Below are positions 948 to 28,589 of a stretch of DNA of 32,000 nt, in pieces. The notes beneath the pieces are model-generated. The model did no database searches, was not told the origin of the DNA, and saw only the letters and a program-made list of their open reading frames with translations. Location of the stretch: NCBI RefSeq assembly GCF_000284115.1, contig NC_017080.1, positions 1,050,001 through 1,082,000 of the forward strand. The letters run 5' to 3'. Within the stretch, counting starts at the first letter, position 1. The number at the start of each line of letters is the position of its first letter. A program made the position numbers and the translations under genes. The stretch comes from Phycisphaera mikurensis NBRC 102666. GTDB lineage: Bacteria; Planctomycetota; Phycisphaerae; Phycisphaerales; Phycisphaeraceae.

Positions 948-970
948 GACTGTACCTAAAGTTTCACCCT

Positions 971-3880: not shown

Positions 3881-3921
3881 AGCCTCGCCCCCGACGCCGC
3901 TCCCTCACCGCCACCTGGATC

Positions 3922-11068: not shown

Positions 11069-11114
11069 GAGACGGGATCGCGGCGGGAGCCGCCGGGGGA
11101 CATCGCTTAAACGA

Positions 11115-13930: not shown

Positions 13931-14059
13931 CGGATGGGTTCCGCTGGATGGGCGTGGGGTGACGGAAGGATCGGTGGTCGGAGCAGGCGCCGCCGCGGCC
14001 GCGTCTTCGGATTTCCGGGGAAGGCTCCGAGGCTCGCGGGCGAGAGGCGGGGCGGCGGG

Positions 14060-15124: not shown

Positions 15125-16041
15125 CGCGCACCCGCCATCCGCTGCGGGGTCGTCGCGTCCGGGCCCTGGGCCTCCGGATGGATCAGGTCCCGCAGCGATG
15201 CCGCCGTGTCGGCGAGCAGGCCCGGTCGCCACGGCATGATCTCCGCGGTCACGGTCCGGTCGTACCCGATGCTCCGGAGCGCGGCGACGCTTTCCACCAA
15301 CGGGACGTCGCCCCGGGTCAGCTCACGGAAGGCGTACTGGCCCTCGCCGAACGACTCGGCGTAATCCTTCACGTGGACGCGTCGGATGCGGTGGTCCAGG
15401 ATCTCGATCCAGTGCGGCGGGTGCTGGTGGAGGCCCGGGAGGTTTCCGACGTCGAGGTACACGCCCAGCCGCTCGCTGCCGAAGCCGTCGACGAACGCCG
15501 CGAGCTCCAGCGGCGAGTAGAAGAGCCCGTTCCAGACGTTCTCGAGGCAGAGATCGATCCCGAGACGCTCGGCGGTGTCCAGCAGCCGGGCGACGTTCTC
15601 GCGCACCCGCCTCCAGGCATGGTCGTACCGGACCCGTTCGCCCGGGCTGATCGGGCTGGTCGTGACGCCCGGGACGTAGAGCAGCGCCTCGGCCCCGAGG
15701 TCGGCGGCACGCCGCAACGCCTCCTCGTGCTCCGCCAGGGAGGCCGCGCGCACGTCGGCGTCTTCGGACACCGGATTGGACGTCCAGCTCATGCCCGACG
15801 CCGCGGTCTCGCAGACGAGCCCGGCGTCGTCGATCGCCTGCCGGATCGCGGCGCACCGCCGGGCATCGTCGTCGGTGCTGAACACGCCGCGCTCTCCGGG
15901 CCGTCCGATGCACATCTCGATCCCGTCGAAGCCGGCCTCCGCAACCGCGGCCAGGGTGGTCTCGAGCGGATCCGCATCGGCCGGGGCGTCCGGCGGAGAG
16001 ATTCCGTGTCGGGTCGACCAGAAGGAGATGCAGCTGAGCAT
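15121..16041 (-). CDS. Sugar phosphate isomerase/epimerase, xylose isomerase-like TIM barrel
   Basis: 306 aa with GFDGIEM, LCLEN, LDVGN and RVHVKD motif spacing typical of the AP-endonuclease-2/xylose-isomerase-like TIM-barrel family. Confidence 0.9.
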   Translation of the reverse strand: MLSCISFWSTRHGISPPDAPADADPLETTLAAVAEAGFDGIEMCIGRPGERGVFSTDDDARRCAAIRQAIDDAGLVCETAASGMSWTSNPVSEDADVRAASLAEHEEALRRAADLGAEALLYVPGVTTSPISPGERVRYDHAWRRVRENVARLLDTAERLGIDLCLENVWNGLFYSPLELAAFVDGFGSERLGVYLDVGNLPGLHQHPPHWIEILDHRIRRVHVKDYAESFGEGQYAFRELTRGDVPLVESVAALRSIGYDRTVTAEIMPWRPGLLADTAASLRDLIHPEAQGPDATTPQRMAGAR

Positions 16042-16092
16042 GGAGGGTCTTTGAAGGAGGTTCCGGTCGGGGCCGGTCGGGGTGATCGCGAG

Positions 16093-19000
16093 CTACCGCC
16101 CGGCAACGCGGCGGAACCATCGGGTCTCGCCGACGGGCAGATCGAAGGTGAAATCGGTTGCGTCCTCGGCCACGACGGCGTCGGTGGTGAGGTCGACGAG
16201 GTCGGCGGGTTCGTCCCAGCGAAGGGTTTTCGGCTGGTCGTTCATGCTGTGCACGACGACCATGCGGTTCCCGGCGTAGGTGGCGTCGTTCTCGGGGCCG
16301 ACGGGGGTGACGCCGGCCTCGGCGGCGAGGTTGCGGAGCAGGCGGGGCGAGAGGCCGCCGGGCGCGGCGAGGTAGACGCCGGTCCAGTCGGCGTGCCGCC
16401 GGACCGCGGCGGCGACGCGGCCGTCCTCGTAGCGGGCCAGCGCGACGCCGCCGGCCTCCGCGAGTGCGTCCTCCGGGAGGTGGATCATCGGCCCGCGGGT
16501 CGGGGTGTTGATGCGGTCGACGTGCTCGGCGAGCGGGTCGCTCCCGGTCGCGGCGTATCGGTGCCACGTCTCGGTTCCCGGCTCGAGCTCGACGGTGAGG
16601 CCGGTCATGCGGCGGACGGTCTCGGTCAGCCCGAGCGGCCCCGAGACGCCGGCGGCGTTGACGACGACGACCACGCGGCCGCCGCGCTGCAGCTCCTCCA
16701 CCGCGGCCACCTGCGCCTCGTCGATCGTGTTCGCGCTGAGGAACACGAGCAGCGGGTACTCCGGCAGGTCCGCGTGGGCGACGTCCGGCAGGAGGTACGG
16801 GTCGTAGCCCAGCCCCGACATCGCCAGCGGGATCCGCGGGAAGTTGTGGCTGTGCTGGAAGTGGTACAGGCCGAAGTACCGCTCCTGGGTCATGTGGTCG
16901 ATCGACCGCTCGTCGGCGAAGGTGGCGACGGCGGGGCGATCGGCGTCGACGGCCGGGTCTTCGGCAATCCGCTGCGCCACCCGCTGAGCCTCGGCCATGA
17001 AGTCGACGTACAGCGGGTCGGACCAGGCGGTGCCGGAGAGGGCGTAGTACCACGCGCCGCCGCCGAGCGCGAGGGCCTGGCCCCACTCGCGGCGCACCTG
17101 ATGGGGCGGGTCCTCGGGGTCCTTGAAGGCGGAGACGTATTCGCGGGAGTCCACGGCGTCGGGGCTGAGCCACGAAAGCGGCGTGCGGTGGTCGGCCTCG
17201 GCGATGAACAGCTTGTCGCGGAGGCGGAAGCTGCCGGCGGCGGAGCTGATCGCGCCGGTGAAGCCGGGGTCGCGCCAGAAGCCGTAGTCGCCGATGCTGA
17301 CCAGCCCGTCGATGTGCGGCGAGTCGAGCAGGGTCCGGGTCGCCCAGTGGTCGAGGTTGTGGGCGTGGGTGACGTCCGACCAGTAGGTGGTGGTGATCGA
17401 CTCGCGGCCGAAGCCGGCGTCGAAGGCCGCGGCGAGGTGGATGGCGGTCTCGGCCTTCCGCTCCGATTGGAAGCGGTTGCTGTCGATGATGCGGCGGTGG
17501 CGTCCATCGGCGGGGTCGAGGAACCAGTTCGCCGGCGTCGGCGGCTGGATGTCCGAGCGGCCGAGCTGGTCTGCGGTGGCGAGCGAGGCGTCGGGGTCGC
17601 CCCAGGCTTCCTGCAGCCCGGCGTCGTCGCCGTACTCGCGGCCGAGCCAATCGCGGAAGGCGGCCAGGTGGCCGGGCGAGCGGTCGCGCTCGTCCTGGGC
17701 GTCGAGCGTGGGCAGCGACTGCCCGTCGGCCCCGATGGCGAGGTGGATGCCGATCACCCGCTTGCCCAGGTCGGACCCGGCGAGGTGCTCGCCCAGCCGC
17801 CGGAGCACCTCGCCGCACGCCTCGCGGTAGGCCGCGGCGGCGTAGCTGAACGCGAAGACCTCGTCGTCGGCCTTGTCGGCGACGCCCTTGCCGCTGTGGC
17901 TCCAGCCGACCACCCGGTCGCCGTCGGGCGACGTGTAGACCGCGTCGGGGTGGTCGTGGTCGAAGTCGTAGTAGGTGTCGGCCCCGATGTTCAGCCGGAG
18001 CAGCGCGTCGGGGCTGTGGCGGAGCTGGACGAGGATGCGGCGGTCGAGCTCGGCGAAGTCGATGTCGCCGTCGCCCCGCCAGACCGGCACGCCGACACCG
18101 TCCCGCCCGCCGGTGTCCTTCGCGTCGCCCAGCGATAGCGTGATCTGCTGGAGCCGCATCCCGGCCTCGCGGGCGAGGCGGGCGCCGAGCTGCGGGTACC
18201 CCGCGTCCCAGAAGTAGAAGTTGGGGTTGTAGAAGAGGGCGCCCGCCGGTTCGCCGTCGATCAGGATCACCGGCTGACCGCCGCGTCGCTCGATCGCCAC
18301 CGCCGCCGGCTCCTCGGCCGCGAGCATCTCGCGGACCTGTGCCTCCGACATCACCGGTGGCTCGTCGGCCGGGCCCAGATCGGCCGGGAGCTGCGCCAGC
18401 GGCTCCGGGGCCTCGCGCAGAGACAGCTCCTTCCACCGCAGGTCGATCGGGGCGCCGGCGGCGCCGAGGCGGACGACGGCCGCTTCGGCGTTCGGGCCGG
18501 TGGTGAAGCGGACGGGCGTGTAGGCCCAACCGCCGCTGCCGGTGTGCTGCACCTGCATGAAGTGCTCGGGCGTGTGGAAGTCGCTGGGTGCGTCGCCGTT
18601 CTGCACCTCGATGTCCAAAGAGGCCGAAGCCCCGAACTCGAAGCCGCGGACCTGGTAGCGGGCGCGGAAGAGGTAGTCGGTGTCGGGCTGGAGCGGGATC
18701 GGCTCGGCGGACGCGGCGGTGGCGTCGCCGCCGTGGGCGAGCACCCGCGTCGACATGATTTCGGGTCCGACGCGACGGACGCGGGCATCGAACTCGGACT
18801 CGGGGCTGAGACCAAAGGGCAGCGGCGTGGTGCCCGCATCCGGCAGGAGCTCCGCCGCGGCGGGCTCGATGCGGAGCTGGGTATTGCGGGCCCAGGGCAG
18901 CCGCAGCGGGTCGTTCGGCGTGCCGGTGCCGGGGGGCAGGATGCGTGGCGGGTGGGAGGTGGAGACGAGCCACCGCTCGGCGGTGGCGTCGTGCCGGGGC

Positions 19001-19167
19001 GGGGTGACGACGACCGGATCACCCGGAGCCGCGCCCGCGACGGGGTCCCCCGCCGCGGTGAAGCTGACCGATCCGGACGCGGCCGCATCCTCGGCGGCCA
19101 CGGGCGCGGCCGCGACGAGCGCAGCGAGCAGGAGGGATCGGCGAGAGGGGCAAGAGCGGGTCGGCAT
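16093..19167 (-). CDS. Secreted large glycoside-hydrolase-like protein (N-terminal jelly-roll module plus GH42-like barrel and trimerisation-like domain)
   Basis: 1024 aa. The N-terminus MPTRSCPSRRSLLLAALVAAAPVAA is Tat-like. A CBM-like segment follows (PLQPDTDYLFRARYQV). The central segment, including AFRDWLGREYGDDAGLQEAWGDPDASL, resembles the GH42 beta-galactosidase pattern. The later EYPLLVFLSANTIDEAQVAAVEELQRGGRVVVVV resembles the GH42 trimerisation (GATase1-like) domain. I did not recognise a canonical NE acid/base motif. Confidence 0.6.
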   Translation of the reverse strand: MPTRSCPSRRSLLLAALVAAAPVAAEDAAASGSVSFTAAGDPVAGAAPGDPVVVTPPRHDATAERWLVSTSHPPRILPPGTGTPNDPLRLPWARNTQLRIEPAAAELLPDAGTTPLPFGLSPESEFDARVRRVGPEIMSTRVLAHGGDATAASAEPIPLQPDTDYLFRARYQVRGFEFGASASLDIEVQNGDAPSDFHTPEHFMQVQHTGSGGWAYTPVRFTTGPNAEAAVVRLGAAGAPIDLRWKELSLREAPEPLAQLPADLGPADEPPVMSEAQVREMLAAEEPAAVAIERRGGQPVILIDGEPAGALFYNPNFYFWDAGYPQLGARLAREAGMRLQQITLSLGDAKDTGGRDGVGVPVWRGDGDIDFAELDRRILVQLRHSPDALLRLNIGADTYYDFDHDHPDAVYTSPDGDRVVGWSHSGKGVADKADDEVFAFSYAAAAYREACGEVLRRLGEHLAGSDLGKRVIGIHLAIGADGQSLPTLDAQDERDRSPGHLAAFRDWLGREYGDDAGLQEAWGDPDASLATADQLGRSDIQPPTPANWFLDPADGRHRRIIDSNRFQSERKAETAIHLAAAFDAGFGRESITTTYWSDVTHAHNLDHWATRTLLDSPHIDGLVSIGDYGFWRDPGFTGAISSAAGSFRLRDKLFIAEADHRTPLSWLSPDAVDSREYVSAFKDPEDPPHQVRREWGQALALGGGAWYYALSGTAWSDPLYVDFMAEAQRVAQRIAEDPAVDADRPAVATFADERSIDHMTQERYFGLYHFQHSHNFPRIPLAMSGLGYDPYLLPDVAHADLPEYPLLVFLSANTIDEAQVAAVEELQRGGRVVVVVNAAGVSGPLGLTETVRRMTGLTVELEPGTETWHRYAATGSDPLAEHVDRINTPTRGPMIHLPEDALAEAGGVALARYEDGRVAAAVRRHADWTGVYLAAPGGLSPRLLRNLAAEAGVTPVGPENDATYAGNRMVVVHSMNDQPKTLRWDEPADLVDLTTDAVVAEDATDFTFDLPVGETRWFRRVAGR

Positions 19168-19224: not shown

Positions 19225-21570
19225 TCAGGGCTGGAGCACGCGGGCGGGAACGGCGGGGTCGGTGGTGGCGATGAGGCTCGGCTCCAGGCCTTCGGCGAAC
19301 GCCACGACGCGCAGCTCGGCGCCGGCGGGCAGGTCGACGGGGCCGTCAACCACCGGTGATCCGGCGGTCGGATCGGTGCCGTCGGTGGTGAAGCGGAGCG
19401 TGGCGTCCGGCTCCTCGGTCGAGGCGGACCAGCGGGGCGTGCCTCCGCTGCCGGCGGCCGCGGGGGTGAGCGTGGGCATGGCCGCGGGGCCGTGGCGGAA
19501 GCCGGTGAGTTCGCGCGCGGCGGGCAGCCACACGCGGTCGTAGAAGAAGGGCTCGTCGCCGCGTTCCTCCCACAGCCCGCGCAGCGCGTTCTCCTGCGGC
19601 ACGTACTCGGTGAAGTACGCGGCGTTCTCCGGGTCGTCGAGGCTGGAGCCGCGGGCGTTCCACAGCAGCGACGCGCGGTGCTTGTCGGTGGTGTCGTCGA
19701 ACTCGGCCGCGTTCCACTCGTCGGCCTTGACGCTCCCGACGGCGTTGGCCACGCGGTGCGACTTGAGCACGTACCGCACCCACGCCCAGTCGGGCCCGGC
19801 CTCGCCGCTGTCGAGGTGCTCGGCCATGTACGTGACCGAGGCGTAGGTGTAGATCCACGGCGCGAGCGTGGCGACGTGCCGGCCCGATTGCGGCACCGAG
19901 TCGTGGATCAGCAGGTGGCCGTCGGGCATCGCGGCGCGGAGCAGCCGCATGGTTTCGTAGCCCCGGATCCAGTCGACCGACGGCAGCCCGTCGCTGTAGG
20001 TGCCGTCGAAGCCGTGGCGGTCGACGGCCTCGAGGATCGCGTCGGCGAACACCTCGGGGTCGCGCGTGCGGTGGAACCAGGCGGAGGCGTAGGCGATGGA
20101 CTTCATCCCCGCGGCGTCGGCCGCCTCGACGTGCCGGTCGATCCACGCCGGGTCGAAGGGGATGAAGCGGTCGCTGAAGGTCATGCCCCACTCCCGCCAG
20201 TGGAAGTCCCAGAGCAGCGCAACGTCGGCGACCCCGGCCGCCTCCTCCAGCACGCGTGCGGGGTCCCAGCTCTTCCAGGTCAGCAGCCACTTCTGGTCGA
20301 AGCTGTCGGCCCAGGGGAACGCGCGGGGCGGGAACGCCGAGAGGAACATCCGGTCGCCGGGCTCGACGCCGGACCATCCGACCCGCCAGCCTGCGGGCTC
20401 CCGGCTGAGCGTGTCGGTGTCCTTCCAGTGCAGGCCGGCGAAGTCGGGCGTGGGGCCGACGGGCTCGGCGCGGGCGATCTTGCCGGTGTCTCGCTGCGGG
20501 TACATCGCCGCGGTGAAGCCACCGTAGCCGTCGCTGGCGAAGACCGCGCCGTCGCCCAAGCGGGCGAAGGGCGCGGCGAACGCGCTTTTCGCCTCGAAGG
20601 AGGCGGCGCCGGCGAGTGGCGCGACCGCGAGCATGCCGTCGCACTGGAAGCCCAGCAGCACCGCGTCGTTGCCGAGCACGAGGACCGTGTCGTCCGATCG
20701 CCGCACCGTGAGGCCGCCGAGGTCGGCGTCGGTGGTGAAGGTGACCAACGGCCGCGGCACCCCGATGCGTTGGTGCGCGGTCAGCGTGCCGGCCCGCGGA
20801 TCGACCACCCACCGCACGCCCGTGACGTCGACGGTGTGGACGCCCGACGCCGCGTTGGACCCGTGACGCTCGACCGACATCGGCAGCGCTCCGGGGCCGC
20901 CGGGGAAGGTGACCAGCGACATCGGATCGCCGCGGATGCCCTGTCTCGCCGGTGGCAGCTCCACGACCGCGATGTCCGCGAGCCTCACCTCGATCGGCCG
21001 GTGCACCGTCTCGCCGACGTAGATCGTCGCGTGCGGCGCCATCGTCCGCAGCCGGTCCGCGGCCGGGAAGGTGTAGGGCTGGTCCCAGCGGCTCCAGCCG
21101 CCGGGGCCGAAGGTCTTCGACGGCAGCGCCATGTCCTTGCTGCCGCTGACGTACGTGCCTTCCCCGTCGAAGGTCATGCATCCGCCGTTGACCTCGGACC
21201 ACTGCTGGTCGAAGTCGGTCTTGACCTTCATCGAGAGCACGTACGGCGTGTTGGGCTTGATCGGTAGGCGGTTCCGGCTCCACCGGGTGCCGTTGGCCCA
21301 GCCCTCGGCGGCGTGGTGCATCCTCCAATGCGCGGGCTGATCTCCCTCGGCGGGCACAAACTGCATCCGCCAGTCCTCGTTCTGCTCGTCATTGAATTCC
21401 GCGTCCGGCGACGACAGGTCGAACCCGTCGATGCGGTGGACCGTTCCCCCGGGGTACCGCTCGAGCAACGCCGCGTCCAGCTCGGCGTGCGTCTCGGCGG
21501 AGCCGGTGGAGAGGCCGGGCATCGTCAGGAGCGTCAGCGCGGCGAGAGCGGCAGGCAGGCAGTTCTTCAT
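19225..21570 (-). CDS. Secreted uncharacterised glycosidase-like multi-domain protein (paralog B)
   Basis: Start at ATG 21570 (MKNCLPAALAALTLLTMPGLSTGSA, a signal peptide). The remainder of ORF 19225..22614 is an R/G/A-rich read-in from the neighbouring gene. Motifs: IKPNTPYVLSMKVKTDF, VTFPGGPGALPM, LGFQCDGMLAVAP, LLWDFHWREWGM, HGFDGTYSDGLP, LTGFRHGPAAMP, and a C-terminal LRFTTDGTDPTAGSP. Confidence 0.85.
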   Translation of the reverse strand: MKNCLPAALAALTLLTMPGLSTGSAETHAELDAALLERYPGGTVHRIDGFDLSSPDAEFNDEQNEDWRMQFVPAEGDQPAHWRMHHAAEGWANGTRWSRNRLPIKPNTPYVLSMKVKTDFDQQWSEVNGGCMTFDGEGTYVSGSKDMALPSKTFGPGGWSRWDQPYTFPAADRLRTMAPHATIYVGETVHRPIEVRLADIAVVELPPARQGIRGDPMSLVTFPGGPGALPMSVERHGSNAASGVHTVDVTGVRWVVDPRAGTLTAHQRIGVPRPLVTFTTDADLGGLTVRRSDDTVLVLGNDAVLLGFQCDGMLAVAPLAGAASFEAKSAFAAPFARLGDGAVFASDGYGGFTAAMYPQRDTGKIARAEPVGPTPDFAGLHWKDTDTLSREPAGWRVGWSGVEPGDRMFLSAFPPRAFPWADSFDQKWLLTWKSWDPARVLEEAAGVADVALLWDFHWREWGMTFSDRFIPFDPAWIDRHVEAADAAGMKSIAYASAWFHRTRDPEVFADAILEAVDRHGFDGTYSDGLPSVDWIRGYETMRLLRAAMPDGHLLIHDSVPQSGRHVATLAPWIYTYASVTYMAEHLDSGEAGPDWAWVRYVLKSHRVANAVGSVKADEWNAAEFDDTTDKHRASLLWNARGSSLDDPENAAYFTEYVPQENALRGLWEERGDEPFFYDRVWLPAARELTGFRHGPAAMPTLTPAAAGSGGTPRWSASTEEPDATLRFTTDGTDPTAGSPVVDGPVDLPAGAELRVVAFAEGLEPSLIATTDPAVPARVLQP

Positions 21571-21614
21571 CGTGAGTCTGATGAGGACGAGGTGGCGGCG
21601 GCGGCGGCGGTGGC

Positions 21615-23888
21615 TCAGGGCGCGGGCGTGGGCGGGCTGGGCTCGAGCCCCTCCGCCACGGCGATCGCCCGGACGCCGGTGGCTGTTTCGAGCGGGCCGT
21701 CGTAGATGGGGCTGTCGCCGGTGGGTTCGCTGCCGTCGAGCGTGTAGTGAATCGTCGCGCCCTCCGTCCGCGAGCGGAGCGTCGTCTTGCCGTTCGCCAT
21801 CTCGATGATCGGCATCGCGGCGGGCCCGACGCGGAAGCCGGTCAATACGCGGGCCTTCTCCACCAAATACCGGTCGTAGAAGTACGGGTCCTCGCCGTGC
21901 TCCTCCCAGAGCGCCCGCAGCTCCCGCTGCACCGGCACGTACTCCTGGTTGATGCCCTCGCCGCTGTGCTCGCCGCGGCGGGCGTTCCAAATCAGCCCGG
22001 CGAGGAACGGGTCCATCGGCTTCTCGAAGCCCGGGCCGGTCCAGGCGTCGCCCTTGACGGTGCCCACCGCGTTGGAGACCCGGTGTTGACCGATTACGTA
22101 GCGGACCCAGGGCCAAGTCGGCCCGGCGTCGGTGGCCAGGTGCTCCGCCATGTAGGTGGCGGTGGTGTAGGTGTAGAGGAACGGCGAGAGCGCCGCGGGG
22201 TGGCGGCCGGACTGCGGGACGGAGTCGTGCACGACGATCAGCTTGTCGCCGAGGCGCTCGCGGAGCAGCCGCAGCTCCTCGTAGCCCACCAGCCACTCCA
22301 CCGCCGGCAGCCCGTCGCTGTAGAAGCCGTCGAAGCCGTACTCCTCGACCTCGTCCGTCACCGCATCGGCCCAGAGCTCCGCGTCGCGGCTGCCGAAGAA
22401 CCAGGCGCTGGTGTAGAAGATCGCCCGCTTGCCGGCGTCCTGCGCGAACCCCACGTGCTCGCGGATCTCCGCCGGATCGATCGCGAGGTACCGGTCGCCG
22501 AAGCTCATGCCCCACTCGCGGGCGTGGAAGTCCCAGAGCAGGAACGTGTCCACCGGCTCCACCCAGTCGCTGGTGTAGTCCCCCGCCGGATCGCCGCGGT
22601 AGGTGAGGTGCCACATCAGGTCGAAGCTGGCCTCCCAGTCGTACGCCCGCGGCGGGAAGGCGGAGAGGAACAGCCGCTCGCCGGCGTCGAGCCGCCAGCG
22701 GATCTGCCAGCCGGCGGGGGCCTCGCTCAGCGACTCCAGGTCGGTGCGGTCGAAGCCGGCGAAGTCAAGGTCGGGCGTCACGGGCTCGGTGTCGGGCAGC
22801 TTGCCGCTGCCCAGCGGCGGGTGGGGGTTCACCGAGAAGCCTCCGAGGCCGTCGCTCGCCAGCAGGTGCCCGTCGCCGTAGCGGACGAACGGGGCCGCCA
22901 GCTCGGAGGTGACCACGATCTCCGCCGCACGCGTCGGGTACAGCGCCAGCATCCCGTCGCACTGGAAGCCCAGCGCCACGTGTTCGTTCTGGAGCACCGC
23001 CACGGTCTCGTCCTCGCGAGCGACCTCCAGCCCGCCGAGCGGCAGGTCGACCGACCACGTCGCCAGCGGCCGGGGGAAGTCGATGCGCTGGTGCGCTGCG
23101 ATGGTGCCCGCGGCCGGGTCGACGACCCAGCGGACGCCGGTGACGTTGACCTCCATCGTGCCGTCGTCCCGGGTCTGCACCGGCTCCACCGCCATCGGCA
23201 GCGTCCCGGGGCCGCCGGCGAAGGTGACCTCCGCCACCGGGTCGTGCGCGGGGACCAGCGGCGTTTGGGGCAGCTCCACGACCGTGAGGTCGGCGATGGC
23301 GAAGTCCACCTCCACAGGCCGCTCGTACTCAGCGCCGAGGTAGAGGTAGAAGGTCGGCCGCCCGAGCTTGATCCCGCCGTTTGGCGGCGTGGTGATGACC
23401 GTCTCGAACCGCTCCCAGCCGCGCGGGCCCTCGGTTTTTGCCGGGAAGCCGATCTCGCGCCGGCCCGGGAACGGGTTCGCCGCGTCGTCCATGCACGCGA
23501 GACCGAGGTTGAGTTCAAGGAATCGGCGGTCGAAGTCGGCGCGGATCAGCGTGGACAGCAGGTACCGGCGGTTGGGCTTCAGGCGGATGTTCCGCTCGCT
23601 CCACGTGCCCCGGGCCAACCAATCCGGCTCACCGCCCTCGTCGAAGGGCTCCACCACGGGGAACCAATGAGCTGGGTTCTCGCCGTCGGCCTCGCGGAAG
23701 TCCCAGTAGAGGTTGGGCTGGTTCTGCCAACCGGCGGACGCGGTGGAGAGGTCGAAGGAGGGCACCTCCAGCACCTCCCCGCCGCGGAGTTCGACCTCGA
23801 GCAGCGACGCCGGCAGGGCGGATTCCGCGACCGCCGCCAGGGCGGGGGCGAGGACCGCGACGACGACGGCGAGCAACGGGACACGCAT
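21615..23888 (-). CDS. Secreted uncharacterised glycosidase-like multi-domain protein (paralog C, tandem to B)
   Basis: Start at ATG 23888 (MRVPLLAVVVAVLAPALAAVAES, a signal peptide). Motifs: LKPNRRYLLSTLIRADF, VTFAGGPGTLPM, LGFQCDGMLALYP, LLWDFHAREWGM, YGFDGFYSDGLP, LTGFRVGPAAMP, IHYTLDGSEPTGDSP. Confidence 0.85.
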   Translation of the reverse strand: MRVPLLAVVVAVLAPALAAVAESALPASLLEVELRGGEVLEVPSFDLSTASAGWQNQPNLYWDFREADGENPAHWFPVVEPFDEGGEPDWLARGTWSERNIRLKPNRRYLLSTLIRADFDRRFLELNLGLACMDDAANPFPGRREIGFPAKTEGPRGWERFETVITTPPNGGIKLGRPTFYLYLGAEYERPVEVDFAIADLTVVELPQTPLVPAHDPVAEVTFAGGPGTLPMAVEPVQTRDDGTMEVNVTGVRWVVDPAAGTIAAHQRIDFPRPLATWSVDLPLGGLEVAREDETVAVLQNEHVALGFQCDGMLALYPTRAAEIVVTSELAAPFVRYGDGHLLASDGLGGFSVNPHPPLGSGKLPDTEPVTPDLDFAGFDRTDLESLSEAPAGWQIRWRLDAGERLFLSAFPPRAYDWEASFDLMWHLTYRGDPAGDYTSDWVEPVDTFLLWDFHAREWGMSFGDRYLAIDPAEIREHVGFAQDAGKRAIFYTSAWFFGSRDAELWADAVTDEVEEYGFDGFYSDGLPAVEWLVGYEELRLLRERLGDKLIVVHDSVPQSGRHPAALSPFLYTYTTATYMAEHLATDAGPTWPWVRYVIGQHRVSNAVGTVKGDAWTGPGFEKPMDPFLAGLIWNARRGEHSGEGINQEYVPVQRELRALWEEHGEDPYFYDRYLVEKARVLTGFRVGPAAMPIIEMANGKTTLRSRTEGATIHYTLDGSEPTGDSPIYDGPLETATGVRAIAVAEGLEPSPPTPAP

Positions 23889-24021: not shown

Positions 24022-25935
24022 ATGACCTCTCCCCGCCGATCCTTTCTCACCGCCGTCTTCTCTGTTTCGCTGTTCGCAGCGATTCCGCTCTGGCCCGCCG
24101 CGACCGCCTCCGCCGAGCGATCCGCCGACGCACCGGACCGGCCCGAGCCGCTGCTGGTGAAGGTCGGCTGGGACGGCGGCGGCCCGCAGAAGCTGCTCGA
24201 CAACCTCGACCGCGTGCGTGACCTGCCCTTCGACGGCCACACCTTCAAGCTGGGCTTCCGCCTGCAGAACGCGTTCTGGAAGGAGGCCATCCCCGCGGAG
24301 GAGTTCGAGCCGCACCGCGCCGCGATGCGGGAGCTGATGGAGCGGGACCTCGGCAACGCGCGGCACAACCTCGTGATGATCTGGTGCACCGCCGAGGCCG
24401 GTTGGGACTGGTTCGACGACGACCACTGGGAGGCGGCGCTCGCGAACATGCGGCAGCTCGCGGAGCTCGCCGCGATCGGCGGCTGCGACCTGTTCTGGGA
24501 TCCGGAGAGCTACCCGGCGCTCGAAGCTCACTTCGGGCAAGACGCCTTCTGGCCCTTCATCTACCAGGACAACCCCGGCCACGAGGAACACAGCTACGAG
24601 GCGTACAAGGAGCGGATCTTCGCCTGCGGAGCGGGCTTCGCCCGCATGCTCCAGGAGGTGGACCCCGAGATCGACGTCCTCTCGATGTACGGCTTCGGCG
24701 TCTTCATGGACCTGCTCGACGAGCCGGATCTGTCGCGGATGAACCAGAAGATCAAGGAGCGGAACTACTACAACCTGCTGCCCGCCTTTCTGGCGGGGAT
24801 GCTGAGCGAGGCCCACGAGGGGCTGGAGGTCTTCGACGGCAACGAGCCCGCGTACTACTACCGCAAAGCCGGGGACTTCTACGAGGACCGCCACCAGCTG
24901 CTCACGCGCGGCCGCCGGCTGCTGCCCGAGACGCTCCGCGGGGAGTTCCCGGAGCACTACCGCTTCTCGAACGCGATCTACGCCTCGGACCTCTACGCGG
25001 CCGATCCCGAGGCGACCGACCAGTACCGCGCCTTCTTCGTGCAGGAGATGACGCGCGAGCAGCAGGCGGAGTTCCTCGCCCACAACGTCTTCTACGCCCT
25101 GCACAGCTCCGATCGCTACGCCTGGTTCTACACCGAGAACGACATCGACGTCTACACCGGCGAGGTGCCCGACGGCATGATCGAGGCGATCGAGGACGCG
25201 AAGCAGCACCTGCGGGAGGGCCGGAAGTACCCCAAGCGGATCTCGGAGGTCGTGGCCGCGGCGAGCGACGCGTACGAGGAGCGGGCCCGGGGCTTGATCG
25301 CCCGCGGCGAGGCGGTGTCCGTGCTGGCCGGCGATGACCTGAAAGTCGATGGCGTCGCGGACGAGGAGCACTGGGCCCGAGCCGAGGCGCACGCGTTCCG
25401 CCTCCCGCTCCCCAAGGAGCAAGGGGGCTACGAAGTGCCCATGGGCACCACGCTGAAGGTCGCGCACGACGGCGAGCACCTGCACCTGCTGGTGCGGACC
25501 GAGGTCGGCGAACGCTCGGAGCTCAAGGCACCCGCCGGGGCGCGGGACGGCGACGTCTGGAGCGGCGACGACGTCGAGTTCGCGATCCAAGACCCCACCG
25601 ATCCGGACCGCTTCGTGCTGCTGATGGTGGACCCCGAGGGCGTCCGCTACGACGCGGCGGTGCGGCCGGCGCAGGGGGAGGAGGACCCGGAGATCAGCAA
25701 CGGCTACGACCCTCAGTGGAGCTTCGCCATGAGCTTCCCCGACGGAGCCTGGCAGGTGGAGGCGGCCATCCCCTGGGAGGCGATCGGCGGCCGGCCCCGC
25801 AACGACCAAGACCTCCGCCTGAACGCCTGCCGCAGCTTCACGATGCAGCCGGGCCTGAACTTCGCCTCGTTCTCGCAGGTCACCACCGGCTTCCTGGACC
25901 CCGAAGAGTTCGGCACCGTGAAGCTGGGACGCTGA
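24022..25935 (+). CDS. Secreted (Tat-type signal) uncharacterised protein with a C-terminal CBM9-like domain (family 2, member 2)
   Basis: Start at ATG 24022. MTSPRRSFLTAVFSVSLFAAIPLWPAATASA fits the twin-arginine S-R-R-x-F-L pattern. The N-terminal ~400 aa are paralogous to the 12059..13930 product. The C-terminus (LKVDGVADEEHWARAEAHAF..LKVAHDGEHLHLLVRTE..WSGDDVEFAIQDP..WQVEAAIPWEAIG) looks like a CBM9/DOMON-type module. Confidence 0.85.
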   Translation: MTSPRRSFLTAVFSVSLFAAIPLWPAATASAERSADAPDRPEPLLVKVGWDGGGPQKLLDNLDRVRDLPFDGHTFKLGFRLQNAFWKEAIPAEEFEPHRAAMRELMERDLGNARHNLVMIWCTAEAGWDWFDDDHWEAALANMRQLAELAAIGGCDLFWDPESYPALEAHFGQDAFWPFIYQDNPGHEEHSYEAYKERIFACGAGFARMLQEVDPEIDVLSMYGFGVFMDLLDEPDLSRMNQKIKERNYYNLLPAFLAGMLSEAHEGLEVFDGNEPAYYYRKAGDFYEDRHQLLTRGRRLLPETLRGEFPEHYRFSNAIYASDLYAADPEATDQYRAFFVQEMTREQQAEFLAHNVFYALHSSDRYAWFYTENDIDVYTGEVPDGMIEAIEDAKQHLREGRKYPKRISEVVAAASDAYEERARGLIARGEAVSVLAGDDLKVDGVADEEHWARAEAHAFRLPLPKEQGGYEVPMGTTLKVAHDGEHLHLLVRTEVGERSELKAPAGARDGDVWSGDDVEFAIQDPTDPDRFVLLMVDPEGVRYDAAVRPAQGEEDPEISNGYDPQWSFAMSFPDGAWQVEAAIPWEAIGGRPRNDQDLRLNACRSFTMQPGLNFASFSQVTTGFLDPEEFGTVKLGR

Positions 25936-26077
25936 GGCAAGGTGCGGAAGGAACGACGCCGGGCTGGCACGCGCGGAGGCGGCCCGGCCAGCCTGTCTCC
26001 GGCAGTGAGGGTGCCACCGCAACATGGGCTCGACCTCCTCCGGAACCGCAGGAAGACCCGGACTTCTTGGTCCGGTC

Positions 26078-26183
26078 GGTGCCACGCCGCTCGCGGGGTG
26101 GCGGTCGCCGGAGGCGACGCCAGCGGATACACGGAACGGCCGCGTGTCCTGCGGACACCCCACCCCGCAAGCGGCGTGGCACC
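26078..26183. other. Long-range 14-bp perfect inverted repeat enclosing nested hairpins (structured RNA or bidirectional terminator candidate)
   Basis: GGTGCCACGCCGCT (26078..26091) pairs with AGCGGCGTGGCACC (26170..26183). Inside lies TGGC(G)GTCGCC-gga-GGCGACGCCA. A further hairpin, CCGGAC-ttcttg-GTCCGG, lies just upstream (26059..26076). All of this sits in the 333-bp gap between convergent genes. Confidence 0.35.
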
Positions 26184-26210
26184 CGGGCATCCGCCGGAGC
26201 TCCGCTCCCG

Positions 26211-26256
26211 CCGCGGACCGCGGTCGGTTTCGCCGCGTTTCGGCGACGGTCCGCGG
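26211..26256. repeat. 46-nt inverted-repeat element, copy 3, 12 nt downstream of the minus-strand stop at 26269
   Basis: Arms CCGCGGACCG (26211..26220) and CGGTCCGCGG (26247..26256), 26-nt spacer cggtcggtttcgccgcgtttcggcga containing GTTTCG twice. Confidence 0.55.
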
Positions 26257-26268
26257 ATCCTCACCGGA

Positions 26269-26880
26269 TCAATGGTCGGCGGCCGGCACGGTGTGGAGGA
26301 GCCCGACGCGGCCGGTGCGGAAGCTGCGGTGCGGGCTCTCCAGGCGGACCGTGGCCTCTCCCGCACCGGGCCGGTTGTAGACGGCGAGGCCGCCGGTGAA
26401 GAGGCGGCGGACGCCGCCGTCGGGGTGCTCCCGCCCGGGCCCGAGCGCCCGGCCCAGCGGCTGGTCCCACAGCGGGTACCAGTCGTGGAGGTGGTCGGGC
26501 GTGGGCAGCGGGTTGGGGTCGCTGAAGAGCACGAAGCCGTCGGAGCGGGTAAGGGCGAGCGTGGTGACCGCCCGCACGCGGGCGGGCTCGTTGCGGCTCT
26601 GCTCGAACCAAGCGGAGATCGCGTTGATCCGCGGCTCTCGTGCGTGCCGCTCGTTGTGGACGAGCGACGCCTCCATCTCCGCCCAGGCCGACCAATTGGC
26701 GCTGCGGTCGGCCTCCATGAACGAGCCGTTGACCAGGTCGGCCGTCTCGACGAGCGGGTTTGCGTTGGCGTTGACCAGGACGAGGGTTCCGGGCGGGACC
26801 TGCGCTCGAACCGCCTCCATCGGCGCGCGGCGGTCGGGCCGCGCATCCCACCACCAGTCGAAGAAGATGCCTGTCTCCAT
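26269..26880 (-). CDS. Short GHL-type (glycoside-hydrolase-like TIM barrel) protein, apparently only the C-terminal part of the fold; possible gene remnant
   Basis: 203 aa from ATG 26880 (METGIFFDWWWD..LVLVNANANP..VNGSFMEAD..RLFTGGLAVYNRPGAGEATVRL) with high GC3. The pattern resembles the central-to-C-terminal part of GHL/GH114-like barrels as I recall them. The in-frame upstream extension to 27012 is P/R/A-rich and looks non-coding. Confidence 0.55.
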   Translation of the reverse strand: METGIFFDWWWDARPDRRAPMEAVRAQVPPGTLVLVNANANPLVETADLVNGSFMEADRSANWSAWAEMEASLVHNERHAREPRINAISAWFEQSRNEPARVRAVTTLALTRSDGFVLFSDPNPLPTPDHLHDWYPLWDQPLGRALGPGREHPDGGVRRLFTGGLAVYNRPGAGEATVRLESPHRSFRTGRVGLLHTVPAADH

Positions 26881-27059
26881 GAGCCCACCGCATCTCCTCC
26901 AGGCCGAACGGGGGTTGGATTGCGCCGGAGCCGTCTCGACCGGACAACCCGGAGCGGCGTTCGGAGCAAGCCGACAAGCCTGCCACGGACGCGGGACCGG
27001 CGGCCGCGGCATCGCCGTGGGGGGAGGAGGCGCATGCTGGTGTCAGATGACGGGAAGCT

Positions 27060-27526: not shown

Positions 27527-28408
27527 CTAGTACTTAGGCGACCGTCCACCCGCGTACGTGGAGGTGGTGTTGTCCGGGAGCGTCTGGAGGCCGCCCATCC
27601 AGAAGTCGCTTCCGAGGTCGGTGTCGTAGTAGGGGTTGTCGAGCGCAAACGTCACATTGGCGGCGCGACCATCCATGAAAGCCGCGTTGACGTTGCCCTG
27701 CGAGGCGTTCGGATCGTTGGAAGCATCGCCGCCGTGCCAATCGGCGTACTTGAGGTTGTTCTCGGGGGTGCCGGCGATGTTGGGGACGAACCAATCGTTG
27801 TAGGCGACGAGATAAGGCGTGCCCGCGATCGGCCAGTTGACGCGAGGGATCTCCACCCAATCCACCATGAGCATCATCTCGGATGCGGAAGTGATGCTGT
27901 CGTAGTTGATGGTCTCCCTCGGGGAACCGCCGTACCAGCTCGGGTCGACTCCCATCGCTTGGTTCATCCCGTAGCTCACGTTCGCTTCCCAGAACGGATT
28001 CGTGTAACGATCGGCGACGCTCTCATCGAGCGGGCAGACGAGGAAACCCGCTTCGTTCGAAGCCTCCTGGTAGGTGTCGTTGCCCGCAAAGCTGCTGTCG
28101 TTCGTGACCCCGGGAATCCGCGACATGAACTCGTTGGACTCGTACCAGTGGCTGGTGCCGCCGTCCGCATCGGCCCACTGCGCGGGCGCGAGGATCCCGT
28201 TCCGGTCGTTCATGTAGCTGAATTGCGCGATCCCGAACTGCTTGATCTGCGACAGGCACTGCATCGACTTCGCGGCGGTGCGGGCGGCACCGAGTGCCGG
28301 CAGAAGGATGCCCACCAGCAGGGCGATGATCGAGATCACCACCAGCAGCTCGATGAGCGTGAAGCCGGGGCGGGAGGGTCTGCCTTGGAGGGAGAGCGGC
28401 GGGAGCAT
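27527..28408 (-). CDS. Prepilin-type N-terminal cleavage/methylation domain protein, DUF1559 (H-X9-DG) family pseudopilin-like
   Basis: Start at ATG 28408 ([57 protein letters not shown]). It has the class-III signal [10 protein letters not shown] motif and a C-terminal WHGG...NAAFMDGRA motif typical of planctomycetal DUF1559 proteins. Confidence 0.9.
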
Positions 28409-28589
28409 GGCGAACCTTTCAAGGGGGAGCGGGAGACTCGGTGGGGGAGGTGCAGGCGAAGGGAGCGGGCGAGGCGGTGGGCCGCGGGCTCCGGGTGGCT
28501 TCCGGGATGTTCTGATTGACGGAAGGACTTCTACAGGATAACCGAACACTCACGCGGCCCAAAGCCCAGTGCGAGAAAGGCGTCGCGCC

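What the first reader, a model, noticed from the sequence alone, without database searches (positions are those of the whole stretch)
19225..23888. Three-member paralog family of ~760-780 aa secreted proteins (tandem pair B/C here, third copy A at 6723..9023)
All three products are collinear. Each has a signal peptide, a CBM-like jelly-roll and a beta-rich middle with VTF(A/P)GGPG.L(P/G)M and LG(F/V)QCDG(M/L)(L/V)A. A putative (beta/alpha)8 segment follows, with AGW(R/Q)..W....G(E/D)R(L/M), LLW(D/E) and (F/I)DG.YSDGLP; the last is reminiscent of the GH13-type 'G.DG.R.D' nucleophile strand. Then come LTG(F/L)R.GPAAMP and a CHB_HEX_C-like tail ((H/R)(Y/F)T.DG(S/T)(E/D)PT..SP). B and C are adjacent and much closer to each other than to A, which suggests a recent tandem duplication on top of an older one. 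I do not recognise this domain combination as a described enzyme family.
Basis: seen in the sequence. Interest (0 to 1): 0.72.

Follow-up and report, generated by a model that had tools for sequence, protein, structure and literature searches.

The report
Uncharacterised secreted glycosidase-like paralog family
Three secreted proteins of the marine bacterium Phycisphaera mikurensis belong to an unnamed, sparsely distributed protein family whose predicted structure resembles known sugar-cleaving enzymes (GH31/GH36/GH129 type). They are probably a not-yet-described glycoside hydrolase family, which is interesting to enzyme cataloguers but is not a new kind of biology.

Summary
A (6723..9023 +, 766 aa), B (19225..21570 -, 781 aa) and C (21615..23888 -, 757 aa) are collinear paralogs. 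B/C are 46.6% identical, A/C 37% and A/B 33%. The window is from Phycisphaera mikurensis NBRC 102666, and C is PSMK_09130.

Pfam recognises only the C-terminal CHB_HEX_C_1/Fn3_assoc tail. The first ~700 residues match nothing above threshold in Pfam or NCBIfam, and no PDB sequence matches them even with a family profile.

AlphaFold of C residues 208-690 (pLDDT 91, pTM 0.92) gives a beta-sandwich followed by an eight-stranded (beta/alpha)8 barrel. The best Foldseek matches are retaining alpha-glycosidases with the same two-domain core: GH36 FpGalNase, GH31 sulfoquinovosidase and YicI, GH129 and GH66. These have E 1e-9 to 1e-6, TM about 0.35-0.39 and ~10% identity.

In 40 diverse family members, the only invariant acidic residues in the barrel are D525 (tip of beta4) and E582 (just after beta6). 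These are the nucleophile and acid/base positions of that enzyme class. D311 in the beta-sandwich is also invariant.

The family has at least ~60 clusters at 50% identity, from Planctomycetota, Verrucomicrobiota, Armatimonadota and gut Clostridia. None is characterised.

The B/C duplication is old, not recent. The substrate is unknown. This is a candidate new GH family within a known fold and mechanism class.

The parts
21615..23888 (-). Paralog C (757 aa; PSMK_09130). Signal peptide, CBM-like jelly roll, beta-sandwich, (beta/alpha)8 barrel, CHB_HEX_C tail.
   Evidence: GC3 0.93; translation; 100% match to P0001. GenBank starts 4 codons later at a TTG.
19225..21570 (-). Paralog B (781 aa), 44 nt downstream of C on the same strand.
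   Evidence: Translation; identical to database protein P0007; 46.6% identical to C.
6723..9023 (+). Paralog A (766 aa; BAM03063.1 / WP_014436283.1). Probable lipoprotein (LLVG|C). Belongs to a different subfamily from B and C.
   Evidence: Translation; identical to P0010; 33-37% identical to B and C; separate clade in the tree.
23274..23777 (-). C residues 38-205: N-terminal CBM-like beta-jelly-roll.
   Evidence: AF2 strands; Foldseek CBM16 2zex TMt 0.57 and CBM22 4xup TMt 0.5; profile vs PDB hits CBM16 at E 0.05; CBM_4_9 in 8 of 40 relatives.
22656..23156 (-). C residues 245-411: beta-sandwich domain. Carries the invariant G-x-Q-x-D (Q309, D311) and D-x-x-G-G-F (D346, G349, G350) motifs.
   Evidence: AF2 fragment model, pLDDT mostly >90; invariant columns.
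21819..22655 (-). C residues 412-690: eight-stranded (beta/alpha)8 barrel, the putative catalytic domain.
   Evidence: AF2 model strands b1 426-429, b2 448-451, b3 488-493, b4 521-525, b5 550-554, b6 577-580, b7 608-611, b8 636-638. Foldseek hits to GH36, GH31, GH129 and GH66. Conserved residues are enriched at strand C-ends, p = 0.0016.
22314..22316 (-). C D525 codon (YSD-GLP), last residue of beta4: candidate catalytic nucleophile. Equivalent residues are B D527 (19990..19992) and A D519 (8277..8279).
   Evidence: Invariant in 40 of 40 family members; coordinates.
22143..22145 (-). C E582 codon (MAE-H), two residues after beta6: candidate general acid/base. Equivalent residues are B E584 (19819..19821) and A E580 (8460..8462).
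   Evidence: Invariant in 40 of 40; coordinates.
22956..22958 (-). C D311 codon (QCD-G) in the beta-sandwich: third invariant acidic residue, possibly contributed to the active site by the N-domain. Equivalent residues are B D311 (20638..20640) and A D292 (7596..7598).
   Evidence: Invariant in 40 of 40. Its spatial position was not measurable because model coordinates are not exposed.
21633..21791 (-). C residues 700-752: CHB_HEX_C_1 / Fn3_assoc beta-sandwich tail. Absent from many relatives.
   Evidence: Pfam E 4e-14, 52.6 bits against a cut-off of 22; present in 16 of 40 relatives; PDB 6q63 match.
9122..19167 (-). Same-strand genes downstream of C and B, a likely operon: 1024-aa protein with a weak GH42 match (16093..19167), xylose-isomerase-like TIM (15121..16041), GFO/IDH/MocA oxidoreductase (14060..15232), 623-aa secreted unknown (12059..13930), HDAC-family deacetylase (11115..12062), DUF5054 protein (9122..11068).
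   Evidence: GC3 gene calls; Pfam; NCBIfam. Gaps between genes are 44-129 nt or overlaps. Co-transcription is inferred, not shown.
24022..25935 (+). Divergently transcribed 637-aa secreted protein with a weak CBM9 match. It is a paralog of the 623-aa protein, and homologs lie near the C-like tandem pair in L001.

Best explanation
A, B and C are three active members of an uncharacterised family of secreted carbohydrate-active enzymes. They are most likely retaining glycoside hydrolases, and probably alpha-glycosidases.

Each protein is exported; A is probably lipid-anchored. An N-terminal CBM-like jelly roll, and in these three proteins a C-terminal CHB_HEX_C beta-sandwich, would hold the glycan. 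The catalytic unit is a beta-sandwich packed against a (beta/alpha)8 barrel, the same two-domain core as GH31, GH36, GH129 and GH66.

Inferred mechanism: double displacement. Asp525 (C numbering, tip of beta4, motif G-x-Y-S-D-G) acts as nucleophile, and Glu582 (just after beta6, motif A-E) as general acid/base. Around them is a ring of conserved residues at the other strand tips: W452, Y492/S494, Y523, H554, K612 and R637. Asp311 may be contributed by the beta-sandwich.

The three paralogs, two of them in a probable operon with other poorly characterised glycan-processing genes, probably handle different linkages or residues of one complex substrate. The substrate is unknown.

Shown: paralogy, domain order, the predicted fold, the conservation pattern, and the absence from Pfam, NCBIfam and PDB. 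Inferred: hydrolase activity, catalytic roles, retaining/alpha stereochemistry and operon function.
For: Paralogy and collinearity.

Fold: the AF2 model of C 208-690 has pLDDT 91.3 and pTM 0.92, with a beta-sandwich plus eight beta/alpha units.

Structural neighbours: the top Foldseek PDB hits are all glycosidases with an N-terminal beta-sandwich plus barrel. They are GH36 FpGalNase 8x1b/9awt (E 1e-9), GH31 6pnr (1e-8), YicI 1we5/8t7z (2e-8 to 1e-7), GH129 5opq/8rzk (2e-7) and GH66 5axg/8iua (5e-7), at probability 1.00. The full-length model gives the same families plus GH101.

Conservation: D525, E582 and D311 are the only invariant acidic residues across 40 members that are 24-69% identical to C. 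Of 26 highly conserved barrel positions, 11 lie within -2..+3 of a strand C-end, against 18% expected (p = 0.0016). All three paralogs keep every one of these residues.

Accessory modules are carbohydrate-related: CBM_4_9, Sialidase-like_CBM, CHB_HEX_C, Laminin_G_3, dockerin and the T9SS tail.

Genomic contexts are carbohydrate-related: sulfatases, GH3, GH30 and GH5 in L004; GH31 and an MGH1-like GH in L001; GH4 and a sulfatase in L005; AraC regulators and SLH proteins in Clostridia.

In FpGalNase, the nucleophile-motif Asp (K461-x-D463) and D532 are essential (PMC11762096). This is a comparable Asp-to-acid spacing.
Against: There is no biochemical evidence for any member.

Structural similarity is remote (TM 0.35-0.39 normalised to the query, rmsd 10-15 A over multi-domain alignments, ~10% identity), and TIM barrels recur in many enzyme classes.

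Profile-to-sequence comparison with GH31 YicI is not significant (hhalign probability 0.7%).

The beta6 residue is Glu, whereas GH27, GH31 and GH36 use Asp. From memory, GH66, GH101 and GH129 use Glu.

Alpha-retaining stereochemistry is inferred only from the neighbours' chemistry.

Gene neighbourhoods are not conserved across phyla, so context gives no substrate.
Confidence: 0.6

Rival explanations
1. The family is already catalogued. It may belong to a recently created or obscure CAZy GH family (or a Naumoff GHL group) that has no Pfam or NCBIfam model and no solved structure. In that case the mechanism above may hold but nothing is new.
For: CAZy and dbCAN could not be queried here. Many GH families created since 2019 lack Pfam models. 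There is a weak sub-threshold similarity to Pfam DUF6259 (E 1e-3, 18.6 bits against a cut-off of 28.7).
Against: No Pfam, NCBIfam or PDB sequence or profile match to the ~650-aa core. All database names are 'hypothetical protein' or refer only to the tail domain. No paper in the full-text library mentions the locus tags, accessions or DUF6259.
Confidence: 0.2
2. The barrel is carbohydrate-active but not a hydrolase. It could be a lyase (as the alpha-glucan lyases within GH31), a transglycosylase, or a phosphorylase-type enzyme using the same Asp.
For: From established knowledge, GH31 contains alpha-1,4-glucan lyases, and GH13, GH66 and GH31 contain transglycosylases with the same fold. A GH66 cycloisomaltooligosaccharide glucanotransferase is among the hits (3wnk).
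Against: Most structural neighbours are hydrolases. An invariant Asp/Glu pair at beta4/beta6 is the classic hydrolase or transglycosylase set-up. Secreted, CBM-bearing architectures favour depolymerisation.
Confidence: 0.12
3. The barrel uses a different catalytic layout: GH18/GH20-type substrate-assisted catalysis (D-x-x-D-x-D-x-E on beta4), or clan GH-A (acid on beta4, nucleophile on beta7).
For: GH18 chitinases and ENGases appear among barrel-only Foldseek hits (ranks 25-45, E 1e-5 to 1e-6). The beta4 motif F-D-G-x-Y-S-D-G begins like the GH18 'F-D-G-x-D' motif.
Against: The GH18 catalytic Glu position is Leu/Pro here (YSDGLP). There is no conserved Glu at beta7; the beta7 tip is K612, and D614 falls below 85% conservation. 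GH18 hits cover only the barrel, whereas GH36 and GH31 hits cover both domains with better E-values.
Confidence: 0.05
4. The proteins are non-catalytic glycan-binding or surface proteins that retain a degenerate glycosidase fold.
For: They have multiple CBM-like modules, no detectable sequence link to any active family, and SLH-protein neighbours in Clostridia.
Against: D525, E582, H554 and Y523 are strictly invariant, and a conserved crown sits at the strand tips, across phyla and across all three paralogs. This is the pattern of a preserved active site, not a decayed one.
Confidence: 0.03

Closest known systems
GH36 (e.g. Flavonifractor plautii galactosaminidase FpGalNase, PDB 8x1b/9awt) and clan GH-D in general (GH27/GH31/GH36)
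   Same: An N-terminal beta-sandwich followed by a (beta/alpha)8 barrel. Best Foldseek E-values (1e-9, probability 1.00). An invariant Asp at the tip of beta4 and an invariant acid after beta6, which are the nucleophile and acid/base positions of this clan.
   Different: ~10% identity. No Pfam Melibiase, GH36 or GH31 match. The K-x-D (GH36/27) and W-x-D-M-N-E (GH31) nucleophile motifs are replaced by Y-S-D-G. The putative acid/base is Glu, not Asp. TM is only 0.35-0.39. There is an extra CBM-like N-terminal module, and a CHB_HEX_C tail replaces the GH31/36 C-domains.
GH31 alpha-xylosidase YicI / sulfoquinovosidase (PDB 1we5, 6pnr)
   Same: The same two-domain core. Foldseek E 1e-8 to 1e-7 with both the full-length and the fragment model.
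   Different: hhalign of the family profile against E. coli YicI is not significant (probability 0.7%). The GH31 signature is absent.
GH129 / GH101 (Zobellia 3,6-anhydro-D-galactosidase 5opq/8rzk; S. pneumoniae endo-alpha-GalNAcase 3ecq/5a55)
   Same: Beta-sandwich plus barrel. An Asp nucleophile with a Glu acid/base pair (from memory of these families). Marine algal-polysaccharide context for GH129. Foldseek E 2e-7 and 1e-7.
   Different: No Pfam GH101 or GH129 match. The spacing between the two acids is different (57 residues here). No evidence for carrageenan genes in the locus.
   Same: The beta4 motif D-G-F-Y-S-D resembles GH13 region II, D-G-F-R-x-D, with the nucleophile Asp in the same place.
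   Different: GH13 regions I, III and IV were not found. The beta5 tip is His, not the GH13 Glu. GH13 structures rank lower (8dl1 at rank 22, TM 0.25). No Alpha-amylase Pfam match.
Pfam DUF6259 (PF19773), an uncharacterised domain
   Same: The only Pfam model with any signal on the core: E 1e-3 on the family consensus, covering barrel beta2-beta3.
   Different: The score is 18.6 bits against a gathering cut-off of 28.7. The match covers only about 65 of 300 profile positions. DUF6259 is itself uncharacterised, and no literature was found.

Membership tests
GH31 | Sequence match to the Glyco_hydro_31 catalytic-domain models. | tested here: not met
   No Pfam hit at E<=1 for A, B or C, in 40 relatives, or for the consensus at E<=10. 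hhalign against YicI gives probability 0.7%.
GH31 | N-terminal beta-sandwich plus a (beta/alpha)8 catalytic barrel. | tested here: met
   AF2 model. Foldseek hits 6pnr, 1we5 and 8t7z at E 1e-8 to 1e-7, probability 1.00, aligned over about 620-650 columns.
GH31 | Asp nucleophile on beta4 within [GFY]-[LIVMF]-W-x-D-M-[NSA]-E, and an Asp acid/base on beta6. | tested here: inconclusive
   An invariant Asp lies at the beta4 tip, but the motif is G-[VFIT]-Y-[ST]-D-G. The beta6 acid is Glu582, not Asp. The signature was recalled from memory.
GH36 / GH27 (clan GH-D) | Sequence match to the Melibiase/GH36 models, and the K-x-D nucleophile motif. | tested here: not met
   No Pfam hit. The motif is Y-S-D; the residue at -2 is Tyr523, which is invariant, and not Lys.
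GH36 / GH27 (clan GH-D) | Fold similarity to solved members. | tested here: met
   8x1b, 9awt and 9ayu are the top three Foldseek hits, E 1e-9 to 4e-9, query-normalised TM 0.36-0.38.
GH129 / GH101 | Sequence match to the family models. | tested here: not met
   No Pfam hit. No PDB sequence or profile hit to 5opq, 3ecq or 5a55.
GH13 | Four conserved regions, including the beta4 nucleophile Asp, the beta5 Glu and the beta7 Asp. | tested here: not met
   Only a region-II-like DGFYSD is present. The beta5 tip is His554. Asp614 at beta7 is not conserved family-wide. No Alpha-amylase Pfam hit.
GH18 | D-x-x-D-x-D-x-E motif on beta4. | tested here: not met
   Beta4 reads F-D-G-F-Y-S-D-G-L-P, with no Glu at the catalytic position.
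CHB_HEX_C_1 / Fn3_assoc accessory domain | Pfam match above the gathering threshold. | tested here: met
   A scores 44.1 bits, B 37.4 and C 52.6, against a cut-off of 22.
CBM4/9/16/22-type carbohydrate-binding module (N-terminal domain) | Beta-jelly-roll fold with a sequence match to CBM models. | tested here: inconclusive
   Fold match to CBM16 and CBM22 at target-normalised TM 0.5-0.57. The profile hits CBM16 chains at E 0.05. Pfam CBM_4_9 is found in 8 of 40 relatives but not in A, B or C themselves. Binding was not tested.
Pfam DUF6259 | Score at or above the gathering cut-off (28.7 bits). | tested here: not met
   Best score 18.6 bits on the consensus and 17.7 bits on P0049.
Any CAZy GH family | Assignment by CAZy or dbCAN family HMMs. 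| not testable with these tools
   No CAZy or dbCAN library is available. Only the indirect negatives from Pfam, NCBIfam, PDB and the literature exist.

The most novel reading that the evidence does not exclude
A, B and C, with at least ~60 relatives at the 50%-identity cluster level in Planctomycetota, Verrucomicrobiota, Armatimonadota and gut Clostridia, found a new glycoside hydrolase family that is a distant offshoot of the GH31/GH36/GH129 lineage. It would have a Y-S-D nucleophile motif and a Glu acid/base, and a specificity not yet covered by known families. For example, it might act on an algal or host glycan linkage for which no enzyme is known. The recurrent tandem paralog pairs would then reflect obligate division of labour on one substrate.
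Probability: 0.45. Interest if true: 0.6.

Novelty: new variant of a known kind. Interest (0 to 1): 0.45.

Why it matters
If confirmed, this would add a new sequence family, and possibly a new substrate specificity, to the retaining alpha-glycosidase superfamily.

It would also annotate several hundred 'hypothetical' proteins in marine Planctomycetes and Verrucomicrobia and in gut Clostridia. These groups are known for degrading complex sulfated algal and host glycans whose full enzymology is unknown.

P. mikurensis is cultivable, so it offers an entry point for biochemistry. The surrounding locus holds several further uncharacterised CAZyme-like proteins (the 1024-aa, 623/637-aa and DUF5054 proteins) that could be solved together.

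It would not change any concept. It is catalogue-level novelty.

Tried and rejected
1. Word-indexed homolog searches with C and with the full-length alignment found only 9 proteins. The repeated CHB_HEX_C tail saturates the candidate list. The exhaustive HMMER search and a tail-less alignment showed the family is larger.

3. The first full-length AF2 model was mediocre (pLDDT 76.6). I re-predicted the 208-690 core with a 19-sequence alignment (pLDDT 91.3).

4. I considered that the aldehyde dehydrogenase upstream of A might be a 3,6-anhydrogalactose dehydrogenase, linking A to red-algal galactan use by analogy with GH129. This is rejected. It is an L-piperidine-6-carboxylate dehydrogenase (768.8 bits against a cut-off of 730) next to a saccharopine dehydrogenase, which is lysine catabolism.

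5. I considered a functional pairing of the HDAC-like deacetylase with the paralogs, by analogy with FpGalNAcDeAc plus FpGalNase. It has no support beyond co-location. The fold class differs, and the pairing is not seen in the other loci.

6. hhalign against E. coli YicI was not significant.

7. Searching for a conserved gene neighbour across phyla found none. Recurring items are AraC-type regulators and a second family paralog in tandem.

8. Literature searches for locus tags, accessions and DUF6259 returned zero papers.

9. The GH18 and GH-A catalytic layouts were rejected on motif grounds.
Full report
**1. Observation**

The window is 72% G+C, so raw ORF lists are full of shadow ORFs. Codon-position GC (third position 0.93-0.95) identifies the real genes.

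The three proteins in the finding are real:
- A = 6723..9023 (+), 766 aa
- B = 19225..21570 (-), 781 aa
- C = 21615..23888 (-), 757 aa

B and C lie head to tail on the minus strand, 44 nt apart. blastp gives B/C 46.6% identity over 744 aa, A/C 37.0% over 771 aa (E 2e-114) and A/B 33.1% over 764 aa (E 6e-90), collinear over the full length.

The N-termini are signal-peptide-like. A carries a lipobox (LLVG|C). This was read from the sequence; no predictor was available.

The window is from Phycisphaera mikurensis NBRC 102666. C is PSMK_09130, where GenBank starts 4 codons downstream at a TTG. B and A are identical to database entries; A is BAM03063.1/WP_014436283.1.

**2. What the libraries say**

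Pfam recognises only the C-terminal ~55 residues, as CHB_HEX_C_1/Fn3_assoc, above threshold in all three. NCBIfam finds nothing meaningful. PDB sequence search finds only the tail, matching 6q63.

Family profiles against PDB sequences find nothing for the core. There is only a marginal CBM16 hit (E 0.05) for the N-terminal domain.

Scanning 40 diverse relatives and the family consensus against Pfam gives only accessory modules: CBM_4_9 in 8, Sialidase-like_CBM in 7 and CHB_HEX_C_1 in 16. There is also a sub-threshold signal to DUF6259 (best 18.6 bits against a cut-off of 28.7) over barrel strands beta2-beta3.

All source names are 'hypothetical protein' or refer to the tail domain. No paper in the searchable library mentions the locus tags, accessions or DUF6259.

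**3. Size and spread of the family**

The word-indexed search found only 9 proteins, because the repetitive tail domain saturates the candidate list.

The exhaustive HMMER search of 1.84 billion cluster representatives lists about 60 single-stretch, near-full-length matches among the best 150. The remaining hits are giant proteins with many CHB_HEX_C repeats.

A scan of GTDB species genomes, together with the source names, places members in:
- Planctomycetota (Phycisphaerae, Pirellulaceae, Thermoguttaceae)
- Verrucomicrobiota (including Chthoniobacteraceae)
- Armatimonadota
- gut Clostridia/Oscillospiraceae MAGs (human Hadza, water deer)
- more weakly, Bryobacteraceae and Anaerolineales

One member comes from a choanoflagellate transcriptome in EukProt. 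This could be prey contamination or horizontal transfer.

**4. Structure**

The full-length AF2 model of C from 10 sequences was moderate (pLDDT 76.6). After collecting more relatives with a tail-less alignment, residues 208-690 were modelled with pLDDT 91.3 and pTM 0.92.

The model has a beta-sandwich (C 245-411) followed by an eight-stranded (beta/alpha)8 barrel. The strands are 426-429, 448-451, 488-493, 521-525, 550-554, 577-580, 608-611 and 636-638.

Foldseek against PDB gives, in order:
- GH36 galactosaminidase FpGalNase: 8x1b, 9awt, 9ayu (E 1e-9 to 4e-9)
- GH31 sulfoquinovosidase 6pnr (1e-8)
- GH31 YicI 1we5/8t7z (2e-8 to 1e-7)
- GH129 3,6-anhydro-D-galactosidase 5opq/8rzk (2e-7)
- GH66 dextranases (5e-7 to 1e-6)

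All have probability 1.00, query-normalised TM 0.33-0.39 and ~10% identity. GH13 and GH18 barrels and generic TIM barrels come later. The full-length model gave the same families plus GH101, and CBM16/CBM22 for the N-terminal jelly roll.

All the top hits share the 'N-terminal beta-sandwich plus barrel' core. From established knowledge of these families, all are retaining enzymes acting on alpha-linked sugars, with an Asp nucleophile at the end of beta4.

**5. Conservation and the likely active site**

I aligned 40 members that are 24-69% identical to C. The invariant positions are W158, Q309, D311, G350, P412, Y523, D525, G526, Y536, R540, R543, H554 and E582.

Within the barrel, the only invariant acids are D525 (last residue of beta4, in G-x-Y-S-D-G) and E582 (two residues after beta6). 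D311, with D346 at 97%, lies in the beta-sandwich.

Highly conserved barrel residues cluster at strand C-termini: W452, Y492/S494, Y523/D525/G526, H554, E582, G609/K612 and R637. That is 11 of 26 within -2..+3 of a strand end, against 18% expected (permutation p = 0.0016). This is the signature of a TIM-barrel active site.

The beta4 Asp and beta6 acid positions are those of the nucleophile and acid/base in GH27/31/36 and GH66. For FpGalNase, the K461-x-D463 motif and D532 are essential (PMC11762096).

A, B and C all retain every one of these residues, so all three are probably active.

I could not measure distances or superpose residues, because model coordinates are not exposed. The catalytic roles are inferred.

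**6. Duplication history**

B/C identity (46.6%) is far lower than C against its counterpart in another Phycisphaerae assembly (L001 gene 1, 70%). That locus also has a tandem second copy, which is 53% identical to C and 44% to B.

In a neighbour-joining tree of the core, B branches before the C clade plus L001 gene 2. A sits in a different clade with P0020.

The B/C split is therefore old. Tandem paralog pairs have arisen or been kept repeatedly; Clostridia loci also carry 880-aa plus 913/917-aa pairs that are 32% identical. 'Recent tandem duplication' is not supported.

**7. Context**

C and B head a same-strand run with short gaps or overlaps, a probable operon (inferred):
- a 1024-aa protein with a weak GH42 match
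- a xylose-isomerase-like TIM protein
- a GFO/IDH/MocA oxidoreductase
- a 623-aa secreted unknown
- an HDAC-family deacetylase
- a DUF5054 protein

A converges on the end of this run.

Upstream of A lie an NAD-dependent epimerase-family gene and, further upstream, lysine-catabolism genes: saccharopine dehydrogenase plus L-piperidine-6-carboxylate dehydrogenase, the latter above the NCBIfam cut-off. This rules out my idea of an anhydrogalactose pathway.

Loci of relatives contain sulfatases, GH3, GH30, GH5, GH31 and GH4, AraC regulators, SLH proteins and T9SS-tailed proteins. No partner is conserved across phyla. The context says 'glycan utilisation' but not which glycan.

**8. Verdict**

- The best analogy should be shifted from GH13 to GH36/GH31/GH129.
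- The most likely explanation is an uncharacterised family of secreted retaining glycosidases with D525 as nucleophile and E582 as acid/base (confidence about 0.6 for hydrolase with this pair, lower for alpha specificity).
- Membership of GH31, GH36, GH129, GH13 or GH18 fails at the sequence and motif level. Only fold-level kinship holds.
- CAZy itself could not be checked, so prior classification remains possible (about 0.2).
- This is catalogue-level novelty, a new sequence family within a known fold and mechanism. Interest is moderate.

Noticed in passing
window 3..968 (-) and 28590..30035 (-): A further paralog pair. The partial gene at the left edge and a 481-aa secreted protein are 58.7% identical over 288 aa. 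Neither has any Pfam match.
   Followed up: partly
window 12059..13930 (-) and 24022..25935 (+); L001 3432..4868 and 7928..8629: Two secreted unknowns (623 and 637 aa) are distant paralogs (25.6% identity, E 1e-20). The 637-aa one has a weak CBM9 match. Its homologs (41-63% identity) lie within a few kb of the C-like tandem pair in another Phycisphaerae genome, which suggests a conserved association with the family. There is no PDB relative.
   Followed up: partly
window 14060..16041 (-): An adjacent GFO/IDH/MocA oxidoreductase, with sub-threshold similarity to inositol 2-dehydrogenase, UDP-GlcNAc 3-dehydrogenase and levoglucosan dehydrogenase, and a xylose-isomerase-like TIM protein. From memory, this pairing resembles the oxidative 3-keto-glycoside route of glycoside cleavage. 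Not tested.
   Followed up: no
window 11115..12062 (-): An HDAC-family (Hist_deacetyl, E 7e-86) deacetylase sits inside the glycan locus. Its GTG start overlaps the stop of the upstream 623-aa gene by 4 nt. It could be a sugar or polyamine deacetylase. Its role is unknown.
   Followed up: no
window 2744..5463 (+): Saccharopine dehydrogenase plus L-piperidine-6-carboxylate dehydrogenase (768.8 bits against a cut-off of 730). This is a lysine-catabolism pair, preceded by an IclR regulator and an SDR. IclR plus SDR also lie about 10 kb from the family's tandem pair in L001.
   Followed up: partly
window 9122..11068 (-) and 16093..19167 (-): A 648-aa DUF5054 protein and a 1024-aa secreted protein with only a marginal GH42 match (E 7e-5). 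Neither has a PDB relative. They are further candidate uncharacterised CAZymes in the same operon.
   Followed up: partly
window 27527..28549 (-): An N_methyl (type IV pilin-like prepilin motif) plus DUF1559 protein, a hallmark protein class of Planctomycetota. This is consistent with the organism identification.
   Followed up: no
window 30109..31992 (-), open at the right edge: A TPR-repeat protein with a C-terminal Sulfotransfer_3 domain. The reading frame stays open to the window's end, so the N-terminus (beginning ...SDHGYQDG) is probably truncated by the window.
   Followed up: no
P0027 (EukProt EP00039 Didymoeca costata) and P0023: A 799-aa full-length family member comes from a choanoflagellate transcriptome assembly and clusters with metagenomic P0023. 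It could be bacterial prey contamination or horizontal transfer into a eukaryote.
   Followed up: no
L002/L003/L022 (Clostridia gut MAGs), about 8900..21600 in L002: A conserved cluster: AraC regulator, family member (880 aa), second family paralog (913/917 aa, 32% identical), a 1069/1075-aa protein with a faint Golvesin_C match, an SLH protein, a 394/396-aa unknown, and another SLH protein. It looks like a cell-surface glycan-degrading module in gut Firmicutes.
   Followed up: partly
window 26269..27012 (-): A 247-aa ORF with a weak match to GHL15, a 'hypothetical glycosyl hydrolase family 15' (E 0.003, below cut-off). Coding signal in 25900..27000 is weaker and ambiguous.
   Followed up: no
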